A stretch of 64,000 nt of DNA from Escherichia coli (GTDB taxonomy: Bacteria; Pseudomonadota; Gammaproteobacteria; Enterobacterales; Enterobacteriaceae): assembly GCF_044324785.1 (NCBI RefSeq), contig NZ_CP172127.1. One strand, written 5' to 3'. The position numbers and the translations under genes were made by a program. The notes under the pieces were generated by a model that saw only the letters and a program-made list of their open reading frames with translations, was not told the origin of the DNA and searched no databases. Of this stretch, positions 19,235 through 19,259 are shown piece by piece (position 1 is the stretch's first letter; each line of letters opens with the position of its first letter).

Positions 19235-19259
19235 ATTATGTACACCCTTATGTACACGG
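19235..19259. repeat. left boundary direct repeat (candidate attL core)
   Basis: ATTATGTACACCCTTATGTACACGG matches 39716-39740 at 22 of 25 positions; contains tandem TGTACAC. Confidence 0.45.

What the first reader, a model, noticed from the sequence alone, without database searches (positions are those of the whole stretch)
19235..19259. 25-bp imperfect direct repeats bracketing the element (19235-19259 and 39716-39740)
ATTATGTACACCCTTATGTACACGG and ATTATGTACACCTCTATGTACACGC match at 22 of 25 positions and sit at the two ends of the accessory block. The right copy lies just upstream of int and is preceded by two more TGTACA motifs, resembling integrase arm sites. They are the best candidates for attL and attR.
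Basis: seen in the sequence. Interest (0 to 1): 0.45.

Follow-up and report, generated by a model that had tools for sequence, protein, structure and literature searches.

The report
Integrase arm sites flanking island attachment core
The two 25-bp repeats are real, but they are not where the island joins the chromosome: they are paired docking sites, most likely for the island's own integrase, lying about 77 and 135 bp either side of the true crossover point in the last codons of yicC, which is an ordinary design for a mobile island.

Summary
The two 25-mers match at 22 of 25 positions, and all five exact TATGTACAC copies in the 64-kb window lie near the island ends.

The attL/attR-crossover reading is not supported. 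Insert-free E. coli K-12 and three metagenome contigs carrying the joined attP place the junction in a 21-bp copy of the yicC 3' end. These blocks are at 19156-19174 and 39847-39867, with an inferred 7-bp overlap TGGATCT. The repeats lie inside the ~20.7-kb island.

Each repeat is a doubled half-site (nnnnGTACAC, 12-bp period). The two copies are co-oriented, with centres about 77 bp (P' arm) and 134-137 bp (P arm) from the overlap centre. This geometry holds in 39 of 42 related islands from Enterobacterales to Betaproteobacteria.

Half-site flavour tracks a short segment of the integrase Arm-DNA-bind_3 domain (partial Mantel r = 0.42, p ≈ 5e-4). It does not track AlpA. The best explanation is arm-type integrase sites that assemble the intasome. 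The int-proximal set probably also represses int, which is inferred only.

A doubled motif with the same spacing was published in 2023 for helper-embedded PICIs, with its binding protein left open. This is a new member of a known kind and of modest interest.

The parts
19156..19174 (.). attL core. It holds the displaced bacterial yicC 3' fragment (B half-site TTATTCGATGTT, carrying a 2-bp deletion), then the inferred 7-bp overlap TGGATCT (19167-19173) and the G at 19174 that completes the 8-mer.
   Evidence: K-12 homology on the left flank runs to window 19167. The block TGRATCTG is invariant in all attL and attR aligned. The 2-bp gap is visible against K-12 and against attP contig L082.
19174..19185 (.). 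Inferred C' core-type half-site, GTTTGTAGAGTA. It forms an imperfect inverted repeat with the C half-site at 39847-39859.
   Evidence: Read by eye from alignments A1 and A2. In the commonest island type, TTACTCGATATTC / TGAATCT / GTTTATTGAGTA matches 9 of 12 as an inverted repeat. The window's own version matches 7 of 12. This is inference, not a tested feature.
19235..19259 (+). The left copy of the finding: the P' doubled arm-type site, with half-sites TTATGTACAC at 19236-19245 and 19248-19257 (12-bp period).
   Evidence: It starts 61 nt after the core 8-mer, as in 12 of the 13 islands where the far end was available (60 nt in L011). GTACA is conserved across diverged islands while the 45 nt between it and the core are not.
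38405..39658 (-). int, a P4/CP4-type heterobivalent tyrosine integrase of 417 aa.
   Evidence: Pfam Arm-DNA-bind_3 at aa 4-90 (E 8e-20), Phage_int_M and Phage_integrase. The PDB relatives 3JU0 and 3JTZ/3RMP are arm domains.
39687..39710 (-). Int-proximal P-arm half-sites P1 (GTGTACATAA, 39687-39696, an inverted copy of TTATGTACAC) and P2 (ATGTACATGA, 39701-39710, weaker).
   Evidence: The GTAC of P1 is invariant in 9 E. coli islands. The flank of P1 changes together with the flank of the doubled site, for example GTGTACCCAA with TTGGGTACAC.
39716..39740 (+). The right copy of the finding: the P-arm doubled arm-type site, with half-sites TTATGTACAC (39717-39726) and CTATGTACAC (39729-39738).
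   Evidence: An unbiased search for the best 11-13-bp-spaced direct repeat in the 130 nt upstream of int recovered this pair in most of 43 loci. Its centre is 134-137 bp from the overlap centre in 39 of 42 loci.
39753..39846 (.). The rest of the P arm. Phased 7-mer repeats (TGCGTCG / TGATAGC / TGATAAC at 39753-39784, and TGCTGCT / TGATTTT / TGATAGC at 39820-39846) flank an island-borne intrinsic terminator hairpin at 39787-39810.
   Evidence: The terminator scan found the hairpin. The hairpin is conserved with compensatory changes, and the repeats change by lineage: TGATAGC, CGGAGTG, TGCGACA. They track AlpA class only roughly.
39847..39867 (.). attR core, TTATTCGATATTCTGGATCTG. It comprises the island-supplied last codons and stop of yicC (C half-site, 39847-39859), the overlap TGGATCT (39860-39866) and the G at 39867 that completes the 8-mer.
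   Evidence: K-12 homology on the right flank starts at 39847. This 21-bp segment differs between island lineages far more than the rest of yicC does. It is intact in attP contig L082.
37126..37329 (-). alpA, a 67-aa AlpA-family HTH protein and the candidate recombination directionality factor or regulator.
   Evidence: Pfam Phage_AlpA, E 2e-8.
39847..40710 (-). yicC, the target gene. It is transcribed toward int, and its 3' end is rebuilt by the island.
   Evidence: RefSeq annotation of homologous loci.

Best explanation
The 25-bp repeats are doubled arm-type binding sites: two 10-bp half-sites of the form nnnnGTACAC, 12 bp apart. They most likely bind the N-terminal Arm-DNA-bind_3 domain of the island's own P4-type tyrosine integrase.

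In the excised circle, attP runs in this order:
- the int start codon;
- P1 (inverted) and P2;
- the doubled site P3-P4;
- phased 7-mers, a terminator hairpin, and more phased 7-mers;
- the core, read as C TTATTCGATATTC, overlap TGGATCT, C' GTTTGTAGAGTA;
- 61 nt of spacer;
- the doubled site P'1-P'2.

Integrase molecules that hold arm sites with their N-terminal domains and core sites with their C-terminal domains would fold this roughly 300-bp region into an intasome. Strand exchange then occurs in the 7-bp overlap inside the last codons of yicC. Integration splits attP, so one doubled site ends up 61 nt inside attL and the other 107 nt inside attR. The island supplies replacement yicC codons and a terminator.

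Shown here: the true junction, the attP junction, the conserved geometry, the domain content of Int, and the covariation. Inferred: that Int is the protein that binds, the exact 7-bp overlap and the core half-sites. Also inferred: that the P-arm sites, which sit in the 188-bp yicC-int spacer where the int promoter must lie, let Int repress its own gene as IntS does in KplE1.
For: **The junction is not in the repeats.** The K-12 empty site and alignment of 9 E. coli attL and attR sites place it in the yicC 3' end. Contigs L082, L079 and L081 carry the P arm, core and P' arm joined, with one doubled site on each side. L082 is 97-99% identical to this island. Its length of 17,670 bp matches the island length after indels, and both of its ends extrapolate to about window 30,990 (the first 5.5 kb of the contig were not fetched). 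That fits a circular element.

**Int has an arm-binding domain.** PF13356, E 8e-20.

**The sites occur on both arms, co-oriented, at fixed distances.** The P' copy starts 61 nt after the core in 12 of 13 islands and 60 nt in the other. These include Aeromonas, Zobellella, Erwinia and Tenebrionibacter. The P centre lies 134-137 bp from the overlap centre in 39 of 42 loci.

**There is a phylogenetic footprint.** GTACA is invariant while the neighbouring arm sequence diverges.

**Half-site flavour covaries with Int residues about 28-44.**
- C[YF]P..Y..PFW goes with TATGTACAC (6 of 6).
- SYRENYQTPVW goes with AGGTGTACAC (10 loci, 2 of them variant).
- R[YFH]R..D..P[TS]W goes with TTGG/TGTACAC (14 loci).
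- C[YH]R..F..[PS]KW goes with TGGTACA (8 of 8).
- The partial Mantel r is 0.42 controlling for the rest of Int, p ≈ 5e-4.

**The two arms change together.** In L011 both are GGTACAGTCTTGGGTACAA, although they lie about 12 kb apart. L034 and L026 behave the same way.

**AlpA does not track the sites.**
- L006 and L008 have identical AlpA but different sites.
- The window and N12 have identical sites but AlpA only 75% identical.
- L010 AlpA is 38% identical to the window's, yet the half-site flavour is the same.

**Precedents.** KplE1 IntS arm sites overlap PintS and repress it (PMC2951348). A doubled motif occurs at 81±2 and 132±2 bp in helper-embedded PICI attP sites (PMC10111431). Those two distances sum to 213 bp, the same as 77 + 136 here.
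Against: No binding or recombination experiment exists for this integrase.

The P-arm sites lie directly next to the codons of the arm domain. One recombination tract would therefore co-transfer both and produce covariation without any functional link. L005 and L007 look like such swaps: 98% identity to the window's Int in the catalytic part but 81-84% in the arm domain.

P' flavour does not always equal P flavour. L006 has TATGTACAC on P but TAGGTACAC/TGTGTACAC on P'. Only GTACA(C) is strictly required, and the flank code is loose.

The simple sigma-70 scan found no promoter in 39500-39900, so autoregulation is conjecture.

The site distance also correlates with the rest of Int (r = 0.61), so shared ancestry explains part of the signal.
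Confidence: 0.8

Rival explanations
1. One reading: the 25-bp repeats are the attL/attR cores, meaning the duplicated target where strand exchange happened and the true ends of the element.
For: They are the longest direct repeat near the two ends of the block, and one lies next to int.
Against: Homology with insert-free K-12 extends 68 nt past the left repeat's outer side, to window 19167. On the right it resumes at 39847, 107 nt beyond the right repeat. A different, shorter direct repeat, the yicC 3' end, sits exactly at both junctions in every island examined. The attP junction contigs keep both 25-mers, about 200 bp apart, with the yicC-like core between them. If the 25-mers were the crossover sites, attP would contain only one.
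Confidence: 0.02
2. The repeats are binding sites for the island's AlpA-family protein, acting as excisionase or regulator, rather than for integrase.
For: AlpA-like directionality factors bind arrays of direct repeats in att arms. The 2023 helper-embedded PICI paper left AlpA open as the binder of its analogous doubled motif.
Against: Site flavour is uncoupled from AlpA sequence: identical AlpA with different sites in L006 and L008, and 38-75% identical AlpA with the same sites. Directionality-factor sites are usually confined to one arm (my own knowledge of lambda Xis, P2 Cox and TorI). Here the same doubled site sits on both arms. A different set of phased 7-mers on the P arm tracks AlpA class better.
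Confidence: 0.08
3. The repeats are operators or promoter elements for another regulator, from the host or the island. The right-hand cluster would control int, and the left copy would control the leftmost island genes, with no role in recombination.
For: The right cluster occupies the only space where an int promoter can lie (39659-39846). TGTACA resembles a -35 hexamer (4 of 6 with TTGACA).
Against: This does not explain the rigid 61-nt and roughly 120-nt distances to the crossover core across genera, nor the co-orientation on both arms. The genes next to the left copy differ between islands while the site stays. No sigma-70-like promoter was detected at either place.
Confidence: 0.07

Closest known systems
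The 'doubled motif' in attP of helper-embedded PICIs (tgTGTATTGCantgTGTATTGCa; NAR Genom Bioinform 2023, PMC10111431)
   Same: Both have a tandem pair of half-sites with a 12-bp period. Both have two co-oriented copies, one on each side of the attP centre. The distances are 81±2 and 132±2 bp there and about 77 and 134-137 bp here, summing to 213 bp in both, so the difference is only where the centre is placed. Both elements are PICI-type islands with int and alpA.
   Different: The sequence motif differs (GTACAC core against TGTATTGC), as does the target (yicC 3' end against prophage late genes). That paper reported its own motif sequence absent from other PICIs and left the binding protein open. 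Here there are also one or two inverted half-sites next to int, and the covariation points to the Int arm domain. Relatedness of the two integrase clades was not tested.
Arm-type sites of lambda-type heterobivalent integrases (lambda P1, P2, P'1-3; KplE1 IntS P' sites overlapping PintS, PMC2951348)
   Same: The integrase has a separate N-terminal arm-binding domain. The repeated sites lie on both attP arms tens to more than a hundred bp from the core. The int-proximal arm occupies the target-gene-to-int spacer, with both genes in the same orientation (the 'STI' shape in that paper), which predicts negative autoregulation.
   Different: The arm domain belongs to a different Pfam family (PF13356, not the lambda type). 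The site sequences, numbers and layout differ. Binding and autoregulation have not been shown for this integrase.
Gram-negative phage-inducible chromosomal islands (PICIs) integrated in yicC
   Same: The yicC 3' end is a recorded PICI integration site. Very similar integrases there show 'attB drift', meaning identity blocks that do not overlap (bioRxiv 10.1101/2022.07.18.500453). I see the same: TTATTCGAT in the window against TGAATCTGCTC in L004. The gene order int, alpA, then primase matches.
   Different: This island is 20.7 kb. It carries homologues of P22 ejection genes 14, 7 and 20 and an IS3-family insertion. No helper phage, packaging genes or induction was examined, so PICI membership is not established.
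Other yicC-targeting islands (MGIVmi1-type IncC-mobilisable islands of Vibrio; GI21 and GISpuPO1 of Shewanella)
   Same: They use the same target, the 3' end of yicC.
   Different: They have different cargo and mobilisation biology. Their integrases and arm sites were not compared here.

Membership tests
Arm-type integrase binding sites of a heterobivalent tyrosine recombinase | The cognate integrase has a distinct N-terminal arm-binding domain in addition to its core-binding and catalytic domains. | tested here: met
   PF13356 Arm-DNA-bind_3 at aa 4-90 (E 8e-20), with PF22022 and PF00589. PDB arm-domain relatives are 3JU0 and 3JTZ.
Arm-type integrase binding sites of a heterobivalent tyrosine recombinase | The sites lie within attP but away from the crossover core, on both the P and P' arms. 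| tested here: met
   The empty site and the attP contigs put the core between the two repeats. Centres are about 77 bp and about 135 bp from the overlap.
Arm-type integrase binding sites of a heterobivalent tyrosine recombinase | The sites are conserved in relatives and change together with the integrase rather than with other island proteins. | tested here: met
   Footprint. Classes of Int residues 28-44 match site classes; partial Mantel r = 0.42, p ≈ 5e-4. AlpA is uncoupled from the sites. Caveat: the P arm is physically linked to the arm-domain codons.
Arm-type integrase binding sites of a heterobivalent tyrosine recombinase | The integrase N-terminal domain binds the sites directly, and the sites are required for recombination. 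| not testable with these tools
   This needs gel shifts or footprints and att-site mutagenesis.
attL/attR crossover (core) sites | The sequence is present once in the empty attB and once in attP, and the junction of island and chromosome falls within it. | tested here: not met
   The 25-mer is absent from K-12 attB, where no TGTACA lies near yicC. attP contains both copies. The junctions fall in TTATTCGAT...TGGATCTG instead.
Helper-embedded-PICI-type 'doubled motif' attP architecture | The motif is a tandem doubled half-site, in two co-oriented copies at fixed and unequal distances from the attP centre (about 81 and 132 bp). | tested here: met
   12-bp period. Distances of 77 and 134-137 bp, with the same 213-bp sum.
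Helper-embedded-PICI-type 'doubled motif' attP architecture | The motif sequence has a TGTATTGC core, and the integrase belongs to the helper-embedded PICI clade. | tested here: not met
   The core here is GTACAC. The motif sequence therefore fails; integrase clade membership was not tested.
Gram-negative PICI (phage satellite) | The island has an int, alpA and primase/replication module at one end and integrates site-specifically. | tested here: met
   Int, AlpA and a TOPRIM/DUF927 primase-helicase. The yicC 3' end is the target.
Gram-negative PICI (phage satellite) | A helper phage induces and packages the island, which carries packaging-redirection or capsid genes. | not tested
   No helper phage was examined. 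The late-gene-like cargo is the P22-type ejection proteins. The circular attP contigs show excision or tandem copies only.

The most novel reading that the evidence does not exclude
The yicC-targeting integrase clade may offer a natural, readable recognition code. Residues about 28-44 of the Arm-DNA-bind_3 domain would specify the 3-4 bases flanking an invariant GTAC in each half-site. At least six protein and site classes are seen across Gamma- and Betaproteobacteria. The arm domain and its adjacent P-arm sites appear to be exchanged as one module between otherwise 98%-identical integrases. If this reflects direct readout, arm specificity could be predicted from sequence and reprogrammed. The helper-embedded PICI doubled motif would then be one more allele of the same 213-bp intasome scaffold.
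Probability: 0.45. Interest if true: 0.5.

Novelty: new member of a known kind. Interest (0 to 1): 0.33.

Why it matters
- It fixes the real borders of a common E. coli island. About 10% of complete genomes carry a relative next to yicC.
- It corrects an att-site call that would otherwise mis-size the element by about 170 bp.
- It gives a complete, testable attP map for a P4-type integrase clade that has no biochemical characterisation.
- It adds comparative evidence on a question the 2023 PICI study left open, namely which protein binds the doubled motif. The covariation favours the integrase arm domain over AlpA.
- It shows that the same 213-bp geometry extends beyond helper-embedded PICIs.
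- None of this overturns current understanding.

Tried and rejected
- **Crossover in the 25-mers:** rejected by the empty site and the attP junctions.
- **tRNA target:** there are no tRNA genes in the window.
- **Promoter scan:** the sigma-70 and terminator scans at both ends found no promoter. They found only the island-borne terminator, so the autoregulation idea stays unsupported by sequence.
- **9-mer with one mismatch:** TATGTACAC with 1 mismatch is not enriched in the window as a whole (8 found, 8.8 expected). Only the exact copies and their clustering are significant.
- **attP junction in IMG/VR viral contigs:** 0 hits. The looser pattern in metagenome contigs succeeded.
- **Strict covariation of P and P' flanks:** rejected, because L006, L005 and L004 differ between arms at the 2-3 bases before GTACAC.
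- **AlpA as the binding protein:** tested by comparing AlpA alignments with the sites and judged unlikely for the 25-mers.
- **Literature searches:** searches for described arm sites of P4-like integrases gave nothing specific to this clade.
- **Paper search that failed to run:** this call failed on a term-length limit and yielded nothing.
- **Pfam scan that failed to run:** this call failed on a wrong reading frame and yielded nothing.
- **Paper look-up that failed to run:** this call failed on a term-length limit and yielded nothing.

Full report
**1. Observation**

The two 25-mers are at the stated coordinates and match at 22 of 25 positions. A degenerate 24-mer with up to three mismatches finds only these two places in the window and none in 100 shuffles.

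The shared 9-mer TATGTACAC occurs exactly five times in 64 kb: twice in the left repeat, twice in the right repeat, and once inverted at 39687. Shuffles gave a mean of 0.23 and never reached five. With one mismatch allowed the count is what chance gives, so the signal lies in the exact, clustered copies.

**2. Setting**

The window is E. coli chromosome in the order ligB, yicG, (dinD), island, yicC, rph, pyrE. The island begins on the yicC side with these genes, all on the minus strand:
- a 417-aa tyrosine integrase (38405-39658) carrying Arm-DNA-bind_3, Phage_int_M and Phage_integrase domains;
- a 316-aa protein with no Pfam family match;
- a 67-aa AlpA-family protein (37126-37329);
- AntA and Ash homologues;
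- a zinc-ribbon/TOPRIM/DUF927 primase-helicase.

There are no tRNA genes in the window.

**3. Where the junction really is**

Against insert-free K-12 (locus L001), the left flank is homologous up to window 19167 and the right flank from 39847 onward. K-12 positions 2501-2512 are present at both ends. Read directly:
- the left junction is ...GTTACGAG TTATTCGATGTT--GGATCTG TTTGTAGAGTA...;
- the right junction is ...CTGATAGC TTATTCGATATTCTGGATCTG CTCGCGCAT...;
- K-12 reads GTTACGAG TTATTCGATGTTCTGAATCTG CTCGCGCAT.

The duplicated segment is therefore the last six codons and stop of yicC, and both 25-mers lie inside the island.

Nine further E. coli loci were fetched. Eight of them carry diverged islands at the same site. 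All show the same picture, and the only block common to every attL and attR is TGRATCTG.

In attR, the 13 bp to the left of that block differ between island lineages far more than yicC itself does. For example, TTATTCGATATTC contrasts with TTACTCCACATTT, although both encode nearly the same peptide. That part is therefore island-borne, and the crossover must lie at or near TGRATCT.

In the commonest type, the sequences flanking TGAATCT form a 12-bp imperfect inverted repeat: TTACTCGATATTC, with GTTTATTGAGTA on the other side, matching 9 of 12. I read these as core-type half-sites around a 7-bp overlap. This is inference from the alignments, not a tested feature.

**4. The attP junction exists in public data**

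A pattern spanning the core and the start of the P' arm found five metagenome contigs. Three of them (L079, L081, L082) continue upstream into the int-proximal P arm rather than into chromosome.

L082 is 97-99% identical to this island. It joins window 19156 to window 39867 through an intact 21-bp core. Its length of 17,670 bp equals the island length after allowing for indels. Both contig ends extrapolate to about window 30,990, which fits a circularly permuted assembly of an excised circle or a tandem copy. The first 5.5 kb of that contig were not fetched, so this end-mapping is an extrapolation.

It shows both 25-mers in one attP, with the core between them. The stricter attP pattern found nothing in IMG/VR viral contigs.

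**5. Anatomy of the repeats**

Each 25-mer is a doubled half-site with a 12-bp period.

In 43 related loci (10 from E. coli and 33 from other genera), I searched the 130 nt upstream of int, without any prior motif, for the best direct repeat spaced 11-13 bp apart. In most loci the best-scoring repeat was this same pair, 38-61 nt (mostly 53-59 nt) from the start codon. The other genera include Enterobacter, Pantoea, Erwinia, Yersinia, Aeromonas, Tolumonas, Zobellella, Vogesella and Azonexus.

The centre of the pair is 134-137 bp from the centre of TGRATCT in 39 of 42 loci.

Wherever the far end of the island was within reach (13 islands), a co-oriented second copy starts 61 nt after the core 8-mer, or 60 nt in one case.

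One or two further half-sites lie between the pair and int. The first of these (39687-39696) is inverted. The GTAC of this site and of both halves of the pair are invariant columns in the attR alignment. In attL the roughly 45 nt between the core and the pair are poorly conserved, while GTACA is kept.

**6. Who binds**

Three lines of comparison point to the integrase arm domain.

*Site flavour sorts with a short Int segment.* The bases before GTAC sort into classes that match classes of Int residues about 28-44:
- C[YF]P..Y..PFW with TATGTACAC (6 of 6);
- SYRENYQTPVW with AGGTGTACAC (10 loci, 2 with variant bases);
- R[YFH]R..D..P[TS]W with TTGGGTACAC or TTGTGTACAC (14 loci);
- C[YH]R..F..[PS]KW with TGGTACA (8 of 8);
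- RYRAGDKVPVW with GGGTACAA or GGGTACAG (2 loci);
- ...PRW with GGGTGCAC (1 locus).

The partial Mantel correlation of site distance with this segment, controlling for the rest of Int, is 0.42 (p ≈ 5e-4).

*The distal P' copy follows the same flavour.* This copy lies 8-20 kb from int in L010, L011, L024, L026, L028, L034 and the window. In L011 both arms carry the identical 19-mer GGTACAGTCTTGGGTACAA.

*AlpA does not track the sites.*
- L006 and L008 have identical AlpA but different sites.
- The window and N12 have identical sites but AlpA only 75% identical.
- L010 AlpA is 38% identical to the window's with the same site flavour.

Caveats:
- The P-arm sites abut the arm-domain codons, so a single recombination tract moves both. 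L005 and L007 are 98% identical to the window's Int in the catalytic part but 81-84% in the arm domain.
- Flank agreement between arms is imperfect in L004, L005 and L006.
- Nothing here is a binding assay.

**7. Mechanism proposed**

This is a standard heterobivalent-integrase intasome. Arm domains would occupy the P and P' half-sites while catalytic domains occupy the core, and strand exchange would occur in TGGATCT.

The island restores the yicC C-terminus. It also brings its own terminator hairpin (39787-39810), which is conserved with compensatory changes in every relative.

yicC and int are co-oriented and 188 bp apart, so the int promoter must overlap the P arm. In KplE1 this arrangement gives negative autoregulation by IntS (PMC2951348). 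I infer the same here, but the simple promoter scan found nothing.

**8. Comparison with what is known**

The closest described feature is the doubled motif in attP of helper-embedded PICIs: tgTGTATTGCantgTGTATTGCa, in two co-oriented copies 81±2 and 132±2 bp from the attP centre. Its binding protein was left open between the Int arm domain, AlpA and an unknown protein, and that motif sequence was reported absent from other PICIs (PMC10111431).

Here the distances are 77 and about 136 bp. Both pairs sum to 213 bp, so the scaffold is the same and the two descriptions differ only in where the centre is placed. The motif sequence differs.

yicC is already recorded as a PICI integration site with 'attB drift' (bioRxiv 10.1101/2022.07.18.500453), which matches the non-overlapping identity blocks I see between lineages. 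yicC is also used by MGIVmi1-type islands and by Shewanella GI21.

**9. Verdict**

The crossover interpretation is wrong, and the arm-site remark is right. The feature is a new member of a known kind. Its main added value is the corrected borders, a full attP map, and comparative evidence that favours the integrase arm domain as the binder of PICI doubled motifs.

Noticed in passing
window 19156-19174; also attL of L003, L004, L006, L008, L009, L010, L024, L026, L034: The displaced yicC 3' fragment left in attL is damaged in 10 of 14 attL sites. The deletions are 2, 4 or 11-13 bp long and always abut the left edge of the overlap TGRATCT. The fragment is intact in all three attP contigs and in L005, L011, L028 and L080. 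The window has the 2-bp form, which may impair excision. The same kind of damage is described for PICIs in tRNA genes (PMC10111431); here it affects a protein-coding target.
   Followed up: partly
window 39753-39784 and 39820-39846, flanking the hairpin at 39787-39810: A second, different repeat family lies on the P arm: 7-mers phased about 10-11 bp apart on both sides of the island-borne yicC terminator (TGATAGC / TGATAAC / TGATTTT). The motif changes by lineage, to CGGAGTG in L010, L024 and L028, to TGCGACA in L011 and L026, and to TGAAAT or TGAGAT in Yersinia and Pantoea. It roughly follows the class of the AlpA recognition helix, with one exception class. These are candidate binding sites for the AlpA-family protein acting as directionality factor.
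   Followed up: partly
window 24473-29131 (minus strand): The island carries a block of P22-type DNA-ejection genes: DUF2824 (the gene 14 position), gp7 (PF25688), gp20 (Inj_translocase), and a 701-aa protein with no Pfam match in the gp16 position. This is unusual cargo for a satellite-like island with no other virion genes. The block is also present in N12, in strain A3 and in the circular contig L082.
   Followed up: partly
window 18725-18901: dinD is mostly missing in this strain. K-12 L001 1524-2247 (about 724 bp of dinD) is replaced by 177 bp. Other island carriers vary: L008 has two dinD copies, L007 has none, and L006 and L011 have dinD pseudogenes. The chromosomal side of attL therefore appears unstable.
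   Followed up: no
window 21642-22915 (minus strand): An IS3-family insertion (HTH_21 and rve domains, GC about 52%) sits inside the island. It is absent from the N12 copy and from contig L082, and it accounts for most of the 87% coverage ceiling in the whole-island search.
   Followed up: partly
Int aa 1-95 against 96-417; loci L005 and L007 against the window: The integrases of L005 and L007 are 98% identical to the window's in the core-binding and catalytic part but only 81-84% in the arm domain. Their P-arm half-sites switch from TATGTACAC to TTGGGTACAC. This points to modular exchange of the arm domain together with its adjacent sites.
   Followed up: yes
locus L038 (Klebsiella michiganensis): A 63%-identical integrase has the doubled site about 97 nt from its start, extra GGGTACAC/GTACCCAA copies, and a core-adjacent sequence that is not the yicC 3' end. 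This may be a retargeted relative.
   Followed up: no
window 19260-19280: A conserved GGTGC(T) block lies about 15 nt beyond the left doubled site in all E. coli attL sites. It could be a degenerate third P' half-site (compare GGGTGCAC in L040) or an unrelated signal.
   Followed up: no
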